A stretch of DNA of 64,000 bases from Escherichia coli. GTDB taxonomy: Bacteria; Pseudomonadota; Gammaproteobacteria; Enterobacterales; Enterobacteriaceae. The position numbers are program-made. This document shows positions 9,001 to 15,000 of the stretch, in pieces. Numbering within the stretch: the first letter of the stretch is position 1; each line of letters starts with the position of its first letter. The stretch lies in the NCBI RefSeq assembly GCF_002854065.1, contig NZ_CP024153.1. One strand, given 5' to 3'.

Positions 9001-12000
9001 GTTTCTGGGTAAAATCCTCAACAACGTGAAGAAGTGGCAGATCCCGCGATTCATCAACACGGATAAAGCGCCCGCCTATGGTCGCGCGCTTGCTCTGCTC
9101 AAACGCGAAGGCCGGTGCCCGTCTGACGTTGAACACCGACAGATTAAGTACCGGAACAACGTGATTGAATGCGATCATGGCAAACTGAAACGGATAATCG
9201 GCGCCACGCTGGGATTTAAATCCATGAAGACGGCTTACGCCACCATCAAAGGTATTGAGGTGATGCGTGCACTACGCAAAGGCCAGGCCTCAGCATTTTA
9301 TTATGGTGATCCCCTGGGCGAAATGCGCCTGGTAAGCAGAGTTTTTGAAATGTAAGGCCTTTGAATAAGACAAAAGGCTGCCTCATCGCTAACTTTGCAA
9401 CAGTGCCAGACAAAAGGCTGCCTCATCGCTAACTTTGCAACAGTGCCCCCTCCCGCACGATGATCGTGCCGTGATCGAAATCCAGATCCTTGACCCGCAG
9501 TTGCAAACCCTCACTGATCCGCATGCCCGTTCCATACAGAAGCTGGGCGAACAAACGATGCTCGCCTTCCAGAAAACCGAGGATGCGAACCACTTCATCC
9601 GGGGTCAGCACCACCGGCAAGCGCCGCGACGGCCGAGGTCTTCCGATCTCCTGAAGCCAGGGCAGATCCGTGCACAGCACCTTGCCGTAGAAGAACAGCA
9701 AGGCCGCCAATGCCTGACGATGCGTGGAGACCGAAACCTTGCGCTCGTTCGCCAGCCAGGACAGAAATGCCTCGACTTCGCTGCTGCCCAAGGTTGCCGG
9801 GTGACGCACACCGTGGAAACGGATGAAGGCACGAACCCAGTGGACATAAGCCTGTTCGGTTCGTAAACTGTAATGCAAGTAGCGTATGCGCTCACGCAAC
9901 TGGTCCAGAACCTTGACCGAACGCAGCGGTGGTAACGGCGCAGTGGCGGTTTTCATGGCTTGTTATGACTGTTTTTTTGTACAGTCTATGCCTCGGGCAT
10001 CCAAGCAGCAAGCGCGTTACGCCGTGGGTCGATGTTTGATGTTATGGAGCAGCAACGATGTTACGCAGCAGGGCAGTCGCCCTAAAACAAAGTTAGCCAT
10101 ATGAACTCGGAATCAGTACGCATTTATCTCGTTGCTGCGATGGGAGCCAATCGGGTTATTGGCAATGGTCCTAATATCCCCTGGAAAATTCCGGGTGAGC
10201 AGAAGATTTTTCGCAGACTCACTGAGGGAAAAGTCGTTGTCATGGGGCGAAAGACCTTTGAGTCTATCGGCAAGCCTCTACCGAACCGTCACACATTGGT
10301 AATCTCACGCCAAGCTAACTACCGCGCCACTGGCTGCGTAGTTGTTTCAACGCTGTCGCACGCTATCGCTTTGGCATCCGAACTCGGCAATGAACTCTAC
10401 GTCGCGGGCGGAGCTGAGATATACACTCTGGCACTACCTCACGCCCACGGCGTGTTTCTATCTGAGGTACATCAAACCTTCGAGGGTGACGCCTTCTTCC
10501 CAATGCTCAACGAAACAGAATTCGAGCTTGTCTCAACCGAAACCATTCAAGCTGTAATTCCGTACACCCACTCCGTTTATGCGCGTCGAAACGGCTAACC
10601 ATTCCGTCAACGGGACGCCAAAATGCTGCGCATTTTGGTTCCCTCCGCTGCGCTCCGGCTCTCGTTACGTCCAACGTTAGCACCACTGAAACCCAGCTTT
10701 ATTTAGCTCATGTTTATTCAAACGGCATTTAGCTTTTCAGGCGTTATTCAGTGCCTGTTTTGCCTTTTTTCCGGGCTTCGCCTGCATGGGCTGCGCAGGT
10801 TTTCAGTCTTTTTGGCCTCTAGCCCTTGCGTAGCAAGCGCAAGCAGCTATCGTTTTTGCAGTGCTGTGCCGCCTCGGTGGCGCAGCGTTTTTTCACGGTT
10901 AGCGCCCGTCGCCAAATTCAAGTTATCCGTTTTGGCTTCTGGTTCTAACATTTCGGTCAAGCCGACCCGCATTCTGCGGTCGGCTTACCTCGCCCGTTAG
11001 ACATCATGAGGGAAGCGGTGACCATCGAAATTTCGAACCAACTATCAGAGGTGCTAAGCGTCATTGAGCGCCATCTGGAATCAACGTTGCTGGCCGTGCA
11101 TTTGTACGGCTCCGCAGTGGATGGCGGCCTGAAGCCATACAGCGATATTGATTTGTTGGTTACTGTGGCCGTAAAGCTTGATGAAACGACGCGGCGAGCA
11201 TTGCTCAATGACCTTATGGAGGCTTCGGCTTTCCCTGGCGAGAGCGAGACGCTCCGCGCTATAGAAGTCACCCTTGTCGTGCATGACGACATCATCCCGT
11301 GGCGTTATCCGGCTAAGCGCGAGCTGCAATTTGGAGAATGGCAGCGCAATGACATTCTTGCGGGTATCTTCGAGCCAGCCATGATCGACATTGATCTAGC
11401 TATCCTGCTTACAAAAGCAAGAGAACATAGCGTTGCCTTGGTAGGTCCGGCAGCGGAGGAATTCTTTGACCCGGTTCCTGAACAGGATCTATTCGAGGCG
11501 CTGAGGGAAACCTTGAAGCTATGGAACTCGCAGCCCGACTGGGCCGGCGATGAGCGAAATGTAGTGCTTACGTTGTCCCGCATTTGGTACAGCGCAATAA
11601 CCGGCAAAATCGCGCCGAAGGATGTCGCTGCCGACTGGGCAATAAAACGCCTACCTGCCCAGTATCAGCCCGTCTTACTTGAAGCTAAGCAAGCTTATCT
11701 GGGACAAAAAGAAGATCACTTGGCCTCACGCGCAGATCACTTGGAAGAATTTATTCGCTTTGTGAAAGGCGAGATCATCAAGTCAGTTGGTAAATGATGT
11801 CTAACAATTCGTTCAAGCCGACCGCGCTACGCGCGGCGGCTTAACTCCGGCGTTAGATGCACTAAGCACATAATTGCTCACAGCCAAACTATCAGGTCAA
11901 GTCTGCTTTTATTATTTTTAAGCGTGCATAATAAGCCCTACACAAATTGGGTAAAACCGCAAGAACTGTAATTATGAATTTGTCAGAAAACTATCCGTAC

Positions 12001-15000
12001 AAGGAAGTGTATGAAAAATGTCTGGTATAATAAAGATATCATCTTGAAAATCGAGTGTTGCTCTGTGGATAACTTGCAGGGTTTAATAAGTATCTTTACT
12101 CAAAAGTTGCAATCAATAATTTATTGAAAAAGATTGAAAGGTGGTGGTAAATAATGTTACAATGTGGGAGTATCAGTTTAAATTCTTCGTGAAATAGTGT
12201 TCTTTTAAGCTAATAAAAAATGCACGTGGAATTTAGGTCAAAGAAAAGTAAAGAAAAATTTATTTATGGAGGTAAAAAAGGATGAGTCAAGTTGTTGATT
12301 TTTTAAATGAAGCAAAAACTTTTTATTTTGCAACCGTTGAAGGAGACCAGCCAAGGGTCAGACCGTTTAATGCAGCCATGGAGAGGAATGGCAAGGTCTA
12401 TCTTGGTACAACCAATCAGAAAAAAGTTTATCAGCAGTTATTGGCAAATTCAAAGGTGGAAGTCTCAGGTATGGCAAAAGGAAAATGGATTCGGCTCACC
12501 GGCGAAGCCGTAATTGATGATACCGTGGAAGCAAGGGAAGCAATGCTTGAAGCAAATCCGCCTTTGAGAGATTGGTATAGCGCTGATGATGGGAAATTCA
12601 CCGTATTTTATTTGAAAAACATGCAGGCAGTTTTATATTCCTTTACAGGAGATCCGGAGATATTAGATAATTAATCAAAACATGCAGCCCAGTGGTAGAA
12701 TGAACTGACCCCCATAAGTTAGACCAAAAATCTAACTTATGGGAGGTCATTTTTTATGGCAAAATACAGTTATGAATTTAAGTTACAAGTTGTTCAAGCA
12801 TATTTAGATTTTTATTTTGTCCGTTTTGTCTAGCTTACCGAAAGCCAGACTCAGCAAGAATAAAATTTTTATTGTCTTTCGGTTTTCTAGTGTAACGGAC
12901 AAAACCACTCAAAATAAAAAAGATACAAGAGAGGTCTCTCGTATCTTTTATTCAGCAATCGCGCCCGATTGCTGAACAGATTAATAATAGATTTTAGCTT
13001 TTTATTTGTTGAAAAAAGCTAATCAAATTGTTGTCGGGATCAATTACTGCAAAGTCTCGTTCATCCCACCACTGATCTTTTAATGATGTATTGGGGTGCA
13101 AAATGCCCAAAGGCTTAATATGTTGATATAATTCATCAATTCCCTCTACTTCAATGCGGCAACTAGCAGTACCAGCAATAAACGACTCCGCACCTGTACA
13201 AACCGGTGAATCATTACTACGAGAGCGCCAGCCTTCATCACTTGCCTCCCATAGATGAATCCGAACCTCATTACACATTAGAACTGCGAATCCATCTTCA
13301 TGGTGAACCAAAGTGAAACCTAGTTTATCGCAATAAAAACCTATACTCTTTTTAATATCCCCGACTGGCAATGCCGGGATAGACTATTATTCTCCCCGGA
13401 GCCACTACGCTGACCCGGTTGATTTCAGAGGTAAGGGAAAAGGCGACGTTGCGCCTGTGGAACAAACGGCACTGTTGCAAAGTTAGCGATGAGGCAGCCT
13501 TTTGTCTTATTCAAAGGCCTTACATTTCAAAAACTCTGCTTACCAGGCGCATTTCGCCCAGGGGATCACCATAATAAAATGCTGAGGCCTGGCCTTTGCG
13601 TAGTGCACGCATCACCTCAATACCTTTGATGGTGGCGTAAGCCGTCTTCATGGATTTAAATCCCAGCGTGGCGTTGATTATCCGTTTCAGTTTGCCATGA
13701 TCGCATTCAATCACGTTGTTCCGGTACTTAATCTGTCGGTGTTCAACGTCAGACGGGCACCGGCCTTCGCGTTTTGAGCAGAGCAAGCGCGCGACCATAG
13801 GCGGGCGCTTTATCCGTGTTGATGAATCGTGGGAATCTGCCACTTCTTCACGTTGTTGAGGATTTTACCCAGAAACCGGTATGCAGCTTTGCTGTTACGA
13901 CGGGAGGAGAGATAAAAATCGACAGTGCGGCCCCGGCTGTCGACGGCCCGGTACAGATACGCCCAGCGGCCATTGACCTTCACGTAGGTTTCATCCATGT
14001 GCCACGGGCAAAGATCGGAAGGGTTACGCCAGTACCAGCGCAGCCGTTTTTCCATTTCAGGCGCATAACGCTGAACCCAGCGGTAAATCGTGGAGTGATC
14101 GACATTCACTCCGCGTTCAGCCAGCATCTCCTGCAGCTCACGGTAACTGATGCCGTATTTGCAGTACCAGCGTACGGCCCACAGAATGATGTCACGCTGA
14201 AAATGCCGGCCTTTGAATGGGTTCATGTGCAGCTCCATCAGCAAAAGGGGATGATAAGTTTATCACCACCGACTATTTGCAACAGTGCCTAAAAATCGAC
14301 CATACAGAGAGGGAAACCACCGGAGTGGTGGGAAAAGCAGAAAGGCTCACGTGGCATAAGGCGTGGACAATGGTATCGACTGGTTTTTCAATTTCCTATA
14401 CGTGAACTATTGAAGTAATCAATCAAATTTTATAGGCTGATAGCCAAGTAACAACCACCAATGATATGCCAGGTAAAATCAGGGGACGTAAAATGAGTAC
14501 TCTTGATGTTCAGAAGCTCAAGGATGATGCCGTCGAATGGGCCTTAACTCATGGTGTTGCTTTCAAGGAATCGTCGTATTCCGCAGTGCATACCCCGTTT
14601 ACCCTGACACCAACACCTATCAGCCGTAAATCCTATCAGTACTTAAAGAATGCAACAGGAATACTCAGCAAATTAATCTATTCAGTTTCTGAGGATCATG
14701 ATTTTTTGTACTCTGCGATTTATCCCATCAAGGCCGGGAATGCCTTCTTTTCAGCCCTCCTGAACATGCATCAACAAATCCATTCATCATCAAGGCATGC
14801 TCCTCGATTACCATTACTCATTATGCGTAGCGACTTTATGGATGATAATCGTGATGGGTTCAGGCTTATAGAGTTCAATGGTATAGCTGCAGGAATGGGG
14901 CCGTTTGGTCAGCGGATACATGATCTGCATCACTATCTACAACGGCAATATCCCGCTGTCTTTTCTGATTTATCGAATCAGGCAACAGGGGCGCTTGTCG

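What the first reader, a model, noticed from the sequence alone, without database searches (positions are those of the whole stretch)
11852..13467. Low-GC, Gram-positive-like segment (BleO-like gene plus split-barrel protein) replacing the integron 3'-CS after aadA2
The 3'-CS is present for only ~100 bp and then switches to AT-rich DNA with Firmicute-style strong RBSs and hairpin terminators. It carries a PNPOx-like 130-aa protein, a 26-codon remnant of an IS3-family orfA-like start (MAKYSYEFKLQVVQ) and a bleomycin-binding protein closest in style to BleO. The segment ends at the frameshifted IS26. This is an inter-phylum transfer into a class 1 integron context.
Basis: partly seen in the sequence, partly recalled or inferred. 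Interest (0 to 1): 0.5.

Follow-up and report, generated by a model that had tools for sequence, protein, structure and literature searches.

The report
ISEnca1-carried Gram-positive DNA remnant after aadA2
The AT-rich stretch after aadA2 is a well-known, widely spread piece of Gram-positive DNA (a flavoprotein-like gene plus a beheaded bleomycin-resistance gene) that an ISEcp1-like insertion sequence, ISEnca1, carried into enterobacterial plasmids; it is real but ordinary.

Summary
After aadA2 only 99 bp of the integron 3'-CS remain (11853-11951). A 1.43-kb stretch of 36.6% GC follows, and it ends near an IS26 whose transposase gene is frameshifted.

- 11952-12237 is the last 286 bp of ISEnca1, an IS1380-family element about 92% identical to ISEcp1. 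It keeps the outward promoter and the right inverted repeat (IRR).
- 12238-13384 is DNA that ISEnca1 carried along. It holds a 130-aa PNPOx-family gene, 107 bp of an IS3-family left end, and a 577-bp pUB110 fragment.
- The pUB110 fragment carries bleO without its start codon, RBS and promoter.
- 13385-13467 is Tn2 tnpA. A Salmonella plasmid with whole ISEnca1 has TATTA on both sides of the unit inside Tn2 tnpA, the mark of ISEcp1-style transposition.

A Bacillota origin is supported:
- The PNPOx-IS3 pair is 98% identical to a gut Ruminococcaceae genome and 99.6% identical to an Enterococcus faecium plasmid.
- The bleO piece is 100% identical to pUB110-type DNA.

The module is already described (pOLA52 "nimC-blmS"; "ble-orf63-ΔISEnca1"). 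At least 383 PLSDB plasmids carry most of it, and 46 carry this exact 3'-CS junction. bleO is probably silent. Novelty: already known. Interest: low.

The parts
11006..11797 (+). aadA2 cassette ORF, the last cassette of dfrA12-orfF-aadA2. Its attC follows, up to about 11852.
   Evidence: ORF list. The same array is annotated in p14EC007b, which matches the window with 0 mismatches and 4 single-base gaps over 11701-14289.
11853..11951 (+). First 99 bp of the class 1 integron 3'-CS. qacEΔ1 and sul1 are missing.
   Evidence: Identical to the other 3'-CS copy in the window (rc of 4570-4669), which continues into qacEΔ1. The two diverge at 11952.
11952..12237 (+). Right-hand 286 bp of ISEnca1 (IS1380 family). 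It comprises the last 26 transposase codons plus stop (11952-12030), the non-coding 3' region with the outward promoter TTGAAA-18-TACAAT (12134-12163), and the IRR ACGTGGAATTTAGG (12224-12237).
   Evidence: 100% identical to annotated ISEnca1 in E. coli pYZMc10-2_113k and Salmonella pF18S044-1. About 88% identical to the ISEcp1 right end, with the promoter hexamers and IRR conserved and homology stopping at the IRR. IRR found, promoter.
12238..13384 (+). The 1147 bp that ISEnca1 carried along beyond its IRR (the passenger part of the transposition unit).
   Evidence: In pF18S044-1, whole ISEnca1 plus this DNA sits inside Tn2 tnpA with TATTA on both sides. Removing the unit restores an open Tn3-family tnpA reading frame.
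12282..12674 (+). 130-aa PNPOx-family (split-barrel) protein gene, called 'orf63' or 'nimC/nimA' in the literature. It lies 44 bp downstream of the ISEnca1 IRR and has a GGAGG RBS.
   Evidence: Pfam PF01243 at 1.9e-9. Nearest solved structure is 2IG6, at E 3.4e-36. The protein is identical to WP_000084745.1 on E. faecium pE211-2. 95% aa identity to Ruminococcaceae AM07-15.
12701..12807 (+). Left end of an IS3-family element: terminal TGAACTGACC..., a leader hairpin at 12711-12743, and the first 17 orfA codons (MAKYSYEFKLQVVQAYL).
   Evidence: Continuous 98.1% match to Ruminococcaceae AM07-15, where orfA runs on intact for 131 aa and gives a weak IS3 transposase hit. 78-83% identical to enterococcal ISEfa10-like elements.
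12808..13384 (-). pUB110 fragment: the mobV-bleO intergenic region, with the bleO terminator hairpin at 12949-12918, plus bleO.
   Evidence: 578/578 identical to a pUB110-type segment in S. epidermidis (12808-13385; the last base coincides by chance with the T of TATTA). 12808-12966 is also identical to tet(L)/mobV plasmids of Enterococcus.
12994..13383 (-). 5'-truncated bleO. Codons 6-134 and the stop are present. The native GTG/ATG start, RBS and promoter are gone, and two in-frame stops lie immediately upstream. RefSeq annotates the CDS as 12994-13380 from an ATC codon.
   Evidence: Translation. NF000027 bleO at 305.5 bits, cut-off 275, profile positions 7-134 of 134. pUB110 5' end shown. 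RefSeq CDS.
13385..13467 (+). Tn2 tnpA fragment. Its first 5 bp (TATTA, 13385-13389) are the right copy of the ISEnca1 target-site duplication.
   Evidence: Reads ...IILPGATTLTRLISEVREKATLRLWNK. It is continuous with Tn2 tnpA to the left of ISEnca1 in pF18S044-1, and the reconstructed ORF hits NF033527 (Tn3 family transposase) at 3.2e-52.
13468..14289 (-). IS26, 822 bp, with intact terminal repeats. tnp26 is split by two 1-bp homopolymer insertions and is transcribed towards bleO.

Best explanation
The segment is the remnant of an ISEnca1 transposition unit.

1. Capture. ISEnca1 is an IS1380-family element about 92% identical to ISEcp1. On a Gram-positive mosaic replicon it sat 44 bp upstream of a clostridial PNPOx-family gene. 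That gene was followed by a truncated IS3-family element and a piece of pUB110 carrying bleO. As ISEcp1 does, ISEnca1 transposed using its left inverted repeat and a surrogate right end 1147 bp beyond its true IRR. The surrogate end happened to lie inside the first codons of bleO.

2. Landing. The unit inserted into tnpA of Tn2 on an enterobacterial plasmid and duplicated TATTA.

3. Later trimming. IS26 cut the Tn2 side at 13467/13468. An unexplained illegitimate join fused position 99 of the integron 3'-CS to the last 286 bp of ISEnca1, at 11951/11952.

4. Function. The PNPOx gene keeps the ISEnca1 outward promoter and its own strong RBS, so it is probably expressed. bleO lost its promoter, RBS and start codon at the moment of capture and is most likely a silent hitch-hiker.

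Shown: the anatomy, the sequence identities, the TATTA duplication and the distribution. Inferred: the order of events, the host in which capture occurred, and the expression states.
For: ISEnca1 remnant:
- 11952-12237 is 100% identical to annotated ISEnca1.
- It aligns with the ISEcp1 right end up to the shared IRR ACGTGGAATTTAGG, and no further.
- The full copy's transposase hits NF033539 (IS1380 family) at 319.7 bits, cut-off 180.

Transposition unit:
- In Salmonella pF18S044-1, Tn2 tnpA is interrupted by IRL-ISEnca1 on one side and ...GGGATAGAC on the other, with TATTA on both sides.
- Excising the unit in silico gives an uninterrupted 201-codon Tn3-family tnpA 5' end.

Origins:
- PNPOx plus the IS3 left end is 98.1% identical to Ruminococcaceae AM07-15, next to a MobP3 relaxase.
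- ΔISEnca1-PNPOx-ΔIS3 is 99.6% identical on E. faecium pE211-2.
- 12808-13385 is 100% identical to pUB110-type DNA.

Promoter:
- TTGAAA-18-TACAAT with an upstream TG lies at 12134-12163, and both hexamers are conserved with ISEcp1 upstream of blaCTX-M-14.

bleO truncation:
-. No sigma-70-like promoter was found upstream of bleO on the minus strand.

Single acquisition:
- Every enterobacterial copy inspected (p14EC007b, pOLA52, pYZMc10-2_113k, pF18S044-1) shares the same bleO/Tn2 junction.
- In one search most of the listed enterobacterial matches also run through that junction to 13467; five stop short of it, inside bleO.

Literature:
- ΔTn2-IS26-ble-orf-ΔISEnca1 is described in PMC7823714 and PMC5645526.
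Against: - The surrogate right end resembles the IRR only weakly. This is usual for ISEcp1 units but adds no support.
- The window holds only one TATTA copy and no IRL, so the unit is inferred from relatives rather than from the window itself.
- The 3'-CS/ISEnca1 junction shows no microhomology and no IS, so how it formed is unexplained.
- The donor replicon carrying ISEnca1-PNPOx-ΔIS3-ΔpUB110 with bleO intact was not found.
- bleO silence is inferred. tnp26 reads towards bleO, so read-through transcripts are possible, and RefSeq calls a CDS from ATC with a GGAG 11 nt upstream.
Confidence: 0.85

Rival explanations
1. One reading: Gram-positive DNA inserted directly into the class 1 integron, replacing the 3'-CS, and bringing a working BleO-like resistance gene.
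For: The low-GC DNA does abut the 3'-CS at 11951/11952 with nothing in between. Its parts are of Bacillota origin.
Against: - The DNA next to the 3'-CS is an internally truncated ISEnca1, not a natural end.
- The other end is embedded in Tn2 tnpA with a target duplication.
- The same module exists without any integron in pOLA52 and hundreds of other plasmids.
- bleO lacks its start, RBS and promoter.
Confidence: 0.05
2. The segment reached this spot as an IS26-bounded translocatable unit, in the pOLA52 form IS26-ΔISEnca1-PNPOx-bleO-ΔTn2-IS26.
For: Most copies are IS26-bounded starting at window position 12000. IS26 flanks the right side here, and the window holds six full IS26 copies.
Against: - The window keeps 48 bp of ISEnca1 (11952-11999) that lie beyond the pOLA52 IS26 boundary, and no IS26 is present on the left.
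- The right-hand IS26 sits 46 bp closer to bleO than in pOLA52, pYZMc10-2_113k and pF18S044-1.
- This lineage therefore descends from a form that predates, or is independent of, the pOLA52 IS26 insertion.
Confidence: 0.1
3. The truncated bleO is still expressed and protects against bleomycin or phleomycin, by read-through from tnp26 and initiation at ATC 13380 or TTG 13371.
For: - 128 of 134 residues are retained, scoring above the curated BleO cut-off.
- tnp26 is on the same strand upstream.
- A GGAG lies 11 nt upstream of ATC.
- PGAP and AMRFinder annotate it as bleO.
Against: - No canonical start codon is present, and two in-frame stops lie just upstream.
- No promoter-like site was found, and a weak terminator-like hairpin lies at 13456-13441 between IS26 and bleO.
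- The lost N-terminal residues correspond to the first 7 residues of Sh Ble in the PDB alignment. From my own knowledge, these form the strand exchanged between the two monomers.
- Other lineages cut bleO further without apparent consequence, for example pK1HV.
Confidence: 0.2

Closest known systems
ΔTn2-IS26-ble(blmS/bleO)-orf63(nimC)-ΔISEnca1 module of pOLA52, pHNYJC8, pHXY0908, pHNSHP45-2 and pHNEP124
   Same: The same DNA: window 12000-13467 matches pOLA52 with only a small intergenic difference at 12691-12694. Described in PMC5645526, PMC7823714, PMC6387526 and PMC5501952.
   Different: Here the left boundary is the integron 3'-CS at 11951/11952 instead of IS26 at 12000, so 48 more bp of ISEnca1 survive. 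The right-hand IS26 lies 46 bp closer to bleO.
dfrA12-orfF-aadA2-Δ3'-CS-ΔISEnca1-PNPOx-bleO-IS26 arrangement, as in p14EC007b (CP024133) and pK1HV (NC_020087)
   Same: The 3'-CS/ISEnca1 junction is identical in 46 PLSDB plasmids of Escherichia, Salmonella, Klebsiella, Shigella, Citrobacter, Proteus and Providencia. p14EC007b matches the window over 11701-14289 with 0 mismatches.
   Different: The window's IS26 copy carries two extra single bases. pK1HV has an IS91-family insertion, and its bleO is cut further by IS26.
ISEcp1-blaCTX-M transposition units
   Same: - Same IS family, about 92% nt identity over the element.
- Identical IRR and conserved outward promoter hexamers.
- Passenger gene starts about 45 bp after the IRR.
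- 5-bp target duplication around IS plus passenger.
   Different: The passenger is not a demonstrated resistance gene, and the unit's far end beheads bleO. The source DNA is Bacillota rather than Kluyvera.
pUB110 aadD-bleO region (Staphylococcus/Bacillus plasmid, also found in SCCmec)
   Same: 578 bp at 100% identity, covering the mobV-bleO spacer, the terminator and bleO.
   Different: aadD, the bleO promoter and RBS, and the first 5 codons are absent. The left side is joined to an IS3-family fragment at 12807/12808.

Membership tests
BleO (NCBIfam NF000027, bleomycin binding protein of pUB110) | Whole-protein score at or above the curated cut-off | tested here: met
   305.5 bits against a cut-off of 275, covering profile positions 7-134 of 134. 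100% nt identity to pUB110-type bleO.
BleO (NCBIfam NF000027, bleomycin binding protein of pUB110) | Complete gene with its native start codon and expression signals | tested here: not met
   pUB110 identity ends at 13385, inside codon 5. TAA and TAG lie in frame immediately upstream. The native GTG/ATG start, RBS and promoter are replaced by Tn2 tnpA sequence. No promoter-like site was found.
BleO (NCBIfam NF000027, bleomycin binding protein of pUB110) | Binds bleomycin or phleomycin and raises the MIC | not testable with these tools
   Needs MIC measurement with the cloned fragment.
PNPOx-like split-barrel family (Pfam PF01243) | Significant match to the family profile | tested here: met
   PNPOx_N at 1.9e-9, residues 3-88. 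Also PF16242 and PF12900. Nearest solved structure is 2IG6, at E 3.4e-36.
Nim 5-nitroimidazole reductases (NimA-K) | Sequence membership in the Nim resistance family | tested here: not met
   The NCBIfam scan returned only a sub-threshold TIGR03618 hit (18.3 bits, cut-off 79). phmmer against the PDB at E ≤ 0.01 found only 2IG6, a structural-genomics entry whose name is its only link to Nim, and no other chain. The 'nimC/nimA' labels in records and papers rest on annotation only.
ISEnca1 / IS1380 family (ISEcp1-like) | Terminal inverted repeat and sequence identity to the named element | tested here: met
   IRR ACGTGGAATTTAGG at 12224-12237. 11952-12237 is 100% identical to annotated ISEnca1. 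The full copy's transposase scores 319.7 bits on NF033539, cut-off 180.
ISEnca1 / IS1380 family (ISEcp1-like) | Transposition unit: IS plus adjacent DNA flanked by a 5-bp target duplication | tested here: met
   TATTA lies on both sides in pF18S044-1, and the target Tn2 tnpA is restored on in-silico excision. In the window only the right copy (13385-13389) survives.
ISEnca1 / IS1380 family (ISEcp1-like) | Complete, transposition-competent element present in the window | tested here: not met
   Only the last 286 bp are present. There is no IRL, and only 26 transposase codons remain.
IS3 family (left-end remnant) | Terminal TG... repeat and an orfA N-terminus continuous with an IS3-type orfA | tested here: inconclusive
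   The 107 bp continue in Ruminococcaceae AM07-15 into a 131-aa orfA. That orfA hits NF033516 (IS3 family transposase) only weakly (35.6 bits, cut-off 160, orfA portion only). 78% nt identity to annotated ISEfa10-like elements. The right end and orfB were not examined.
Class 1 integron 3'-CS | qacEΔ1-sul1 following the last attC | tested here: not met
   Only the first 99 bp are present. The qacEΔ1 start found elsewhere in the window (4541-4569) is absent here.
Integron gene cassette (for the low-GC DNA) | Bounded by an attC with GTTRRRY core sites | tested here: not met
   The boundaries are an internal ISEnca1 breakpoint and a Tn2/IS26 junction, and no attC is present.

The most novel reading that the evidence does not exclude
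The PNPOx-family gene, not bleO, could be the selected cargo. It sits 44 bp behind the ISEnca1 outward promoter, exactly where blaCTX-M sits behind ISEcp1. It has travelled from gut Clostridia through Enterococcus into livestock-associated enterobacterial plasmids, often next to oqxAB. It might reduce or sequester a nitro-aromatic or quinoxaline-N-oxide drug used in animals (nitroimidazoles, nitrofurans, olaquindox, carbadox), which would make it an unrecognised resistance or tolerance determinant.
Probability: 0.08. Interest if true: 0.55.

Novelty: already known. Interest (0 to 1): 0.12.

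Why it matters
The value here is mainly in correcting annotation.

- The 'bleO' that AMRFinder and PGAP report at 100% identity on hundreds of enterobacterial plasmids is a beheaded gene without expression signals. It should not be counted as a functional bleomycin resistance determinant without a test.
- The 'nimC/nimA' label on its neighbour has no support at the family level.
- The locus is a clean example that ISEcp1-type one-ended transposition, here by ISEnca1, moves Bacillota DNA into Proteobacteria.
- Its breakpoints can serve as lineage markers for tracing IncHI2, IncX1, IncF and IncR multiresistance regions. 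The markers are the 3'-CS/ISEnca1 junction at 11951/11952, the IS26 boundary at 12000 in the pOLA52 lineage, and the two alternative IS26 positions in Tn2.

It opens no new biology.

Tried and rejected
- Microhomology or an IS at the 3'-CS/ISEnca1 junction: none seen, so the joining mechanism stays open.
- Similarity of the unit's surrogate right end to the IRR: only a handful of matching positions, which is uninformative.
- A promoter for bleO on the minus strand between 13385 and 13600: none found.
- A simple microhomology deletion between the Tn2 'GGCACTG' and the IS26 terminal 'GGCACTG', to explain the IS26 lying 46 bp closer: rejected. The T that such a deletion would retain is missing. 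An IS26 adjacent deletion or an independent insertion fits better.
- A donor replicon carrying ISEnca1-PNPOx-ΔIS3-pUB110 with intact bleO: not found in PLSDB. E. faecium pE211-2 holds only ΔISEnca1-PNPOx-ΔIS3, cut on both sides by IS6-family elements.
- Literature describing the exact dfrA12-orfF-aadA2-Δ3'-CS-ΔISEnca1 junction, or the TATTA-flanked unit: not found in four successful searches. One further search failed on syntax.
- The cassette (attC) hypothesis for the low-GC DNA: rejected on anatomy.
- Structure prediction and the large protein-database searches were not run. Curated family models and nucleotide identities of 98-100% already settled the identities.

Full report
**Observation.** The window carries the cassette array dfrA12-orfF-aadA2 (10101-11797). 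After the aadA2 attC, the 3'-CS runs from 11853 to 11951. These 99 bp are identical to a second 3'-CS copy on the minus strand (4570-4669), which continues into qacEΔ1 (4541-4569). Here the sequence changes at 11952. GC falls from 0.52 in the cassettes to 0.366 over 11952-13384, then returns to 0.53 at 13385. The IS26 at 13468-14289 is 822 bp. Two 1-bp insertions (T at 13772, A at 13834) split its transposase gene, whereas the five other IS26 copies in the window are 820 bp with an intact gene.

**Anatomy, left part.** Window 11952-12237 is 100% identical to the right end of elements annotated ISEnca1 (IS1380 family) in E. coli pYZMc10-2_113k and Salmonella pF18S044-1. It is about 88% identical to the right end of ISEcp1 in thousands of plasmids. 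An alignment with ISEcp1-blaCTX-M-14 of pKF3-70 shows three shared features: the transposase C-terminus, the hexamers TTGAAA and TACAAT (window 12134-12163, also picked up by the promoter scan), and an identical IRR ACGTGGAATTTAGG (12224-12237). Similarity stops at the IRR. The full ISEnca1 transposase passes the IS1380 model at 319.7 bits against a cut-off of 180. The element is about 92% identical to ISEcp1 over 1.4 kb.

**Anatomy, passenger DNA (12238-13384).**
- *PNPOx-family gene, 12282-12674.* It starts 44 bp after the IRR and has a GGAGG RBS. It matches Pfam PNPOx_N at 1.9e-9. The nearest solved structure is 2IG6 from Clostridium acetobutylicum, at E 3.4e-36. No NCBIfam model places it among Nim proteins.
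- *pUB110 fragment, 12808-13384.* It is identical at 578 of 578 positions to a pUB110-type segment (rep-mobV-bleO-aadD) in Staphylococcus epidermidis. Its first 159 bp are also identical to tet(L)/mobV plasmids of Enterococcus.

**State of bleO.** bleO lies on the minus strand. It scores 305.5 bits on NF000027 (cut-off 275) but covers only profile positions 7-134. pUB110 reads GTG AGA ATG TTA CAG TCT ATC. In the window, identity ends inside the CAG codon, and TAA TAG stand in frame upstream. The native start, RBS and promoter are therefore gone. RefSeq calls the CDS from an ATC codon. No promoter-like site lies upstream on that strand.

**Anatomy, right part.** 13385-13467 reads IILPGATTLTRLISEVREKATLRLWNK. 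In Salmonella pF18S044-1, ISEnca1 is whole apart from a later IS26 insertion. There, Tn2 tnpA runs up to ...CATCGTATTA, followed by the ISEnca1 left inverted repeat (CTGAGATTCTACGT...). On the far side...GGGATAGAC is followed by TATTATTCTCCCC. Deleting the unit and one TATTA copy restores an open 201-codon reading frame that hits the Tn3-family transposase model at 3.2e-52. This is the signature of an ISEcp1-type transposition unit: the IS plus 1147 bp of adjacent DNA, ended by a surrogate right end, with a 5-bp target duplication. Every enterobacterial copy inspected shares the bleO/Tn2 junction, which argues for one ancestral event.

**Origin.**
- All 53 relatives of the PNPOx protein found among 100,044 species-representative genomes are Bacillota, nearly all of them Clostridia. 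The best is Ruminococcaceae bacterium AM07-15, at 95% aa.
- In that genome, 572 bp (window 12238-12809) are 98.1% identical. The IS3-family orfA continues intact, and a MobP3 relaxase lies upstream.
- Enterococcus faecium pE211-2 carries ΔISEnca1-PNPOx-ΔIS3 at 99.6% identity (window 11952-12791) with an identical protein. It is cut by ISEnfa1 and IS1216 at breakpoints different from those in the window.
- With the pUB110 piece, all three passenger components and the vehicle are linked to Bacillota.

**How common and how known.** At least 383 PLSDB plasmids and 144 complete E. coli genomes carry 80% or more of the segment. Most are in the pOLA52 form, in which an IS26 inside ISEnca1 bounds the module at window position 12000. 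The exact 3'-CS/ISEnca1 junction occurs in 46 plasmids from at least seven genera, including pK1HV. p14EC007b matches the window over 11701-14289 with no mismatches and four single-base gaps. Papers describe 'ΔTn2-IS26-ble-orf-ΔISEnca1', 'blms, orf63, ΔISEnca1' and 'nimC ... blmS' (PMC7823714, PMC5645526, PMC6387526, PMC5501952). ISEnca1 is also reported next to optrA in Arcobacter (PMC9535334).

**History of this copy.** The window retains 48 bp of ISEnca1 (11952-11999) that the pOLA52 lineage lost to IS26. Its right-hand IS26 sits 46 bp closer to bleO than in pOLA52, pYZMc10-2_113k and pF18S044-1. It is therefore a sister of the pOLA52 form, not a descendant. The 3'-CS/ISEnca1 join shows no microhomology and no IS, and how it formed is not explained.

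**Function.** The PNPOx gene is probably transcribed from the ISEnca1 promoter. This is inferred from the conserved hexamers and from its position being the same as that of blaCTX-M behind ISEcp1. Its substrate is unknown, and the 'nimC' label is unsupported. bleO is most likely silent, although tnp26 reads towards it and a GGAG lies 11 nt upstream of the ATC. I give about 0.2 to residual function.

**Verdict.** The feature is real and correctly located, and its origin outside the Proteobacteria is correctly sensed. It is nonetheless an already described, widely disseminated ISEnca1-borne remnant. Interest is low.

Noticed in passing
window 4222-4669 (minus strand): A second class 1 integron 3'-CS, with the qacEΔ1 start at 4541-4569, lies in the opposite orientation about 7 kb from the finding. 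The window therefore holds two integron remnants separated by IS26 copies.
   Followed up: partly
window 3163-3982, 8588-9407, 13468-14289, 18421-19240, 25277-26096, 31293-32112; also IR hits at 606, 9434 and 21003: There are six full IS26 copies in two sequence variants that differ by 3 SNPs (copies at 3163 and 8588 versus the rest), plus solitary IS26 ends. Two of those ends are only 40 bp apart (9394-9407 and 9434-9447). This is a typical IS26-built multiresistance region.
   Followed up: partly
window 13772 and 13834: Only this IS26 copy carries two 1-bp homopolymer insertions. p14EC007b, which is otherwise identical, lacks them. They may be real inactivating mutations or local assembly errors.
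   Followed up: partly
L003 (E. coli pYZMc10-2_113k) 2704-3647: A second ISEnca1 right end (238 bp, identical to window 12000-12237) is followed 57 bp after its IRR by a low-GC gene for a 215-aa MBL-fold metallo-hydrolase with an AGGAGG RBS. ISEnca1 has therefore picked up at least one other Gram-positive-style passenger of unknown function.
   Followed up: no
L008 (Ruminococcaceae bacterium AM07-15) 3754-3786: A solitary 33-bp copy of the ISEnca1 right end, including the IRR with one mismatch, lies 32 bp upstream of the point where ISEnca1 abuts the PNPOx gene in the window. This looks like the trace of a separate ISEnca1 visit to the same spot in a clostridial genome.
   Followed up: no
L061 (K. 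pneumoniae pK1HV) 6531-6935: RefSeq annotates a 405-bp 'bleO' that is really bleO cut by IS26 after codon 19 or so and read through into the IS26 end. This is another mis-annotated truncated bleO.
   Followed up: partly
window 14466-15929: A 487-aa eukaryotic-type glutathione synthase gene lies directly beyond the IS26. It is 100% identical in many large enterobacterial plasmids.
   Followed up: no
window 12691-12694: The only difference from pOLA52, p14EC007b and E. faecium pE211-2 inside the module is a small intergenic change (CCCAGTGG versus CCCAAGTG) just before the IS3 left end.
   Followed up: yes
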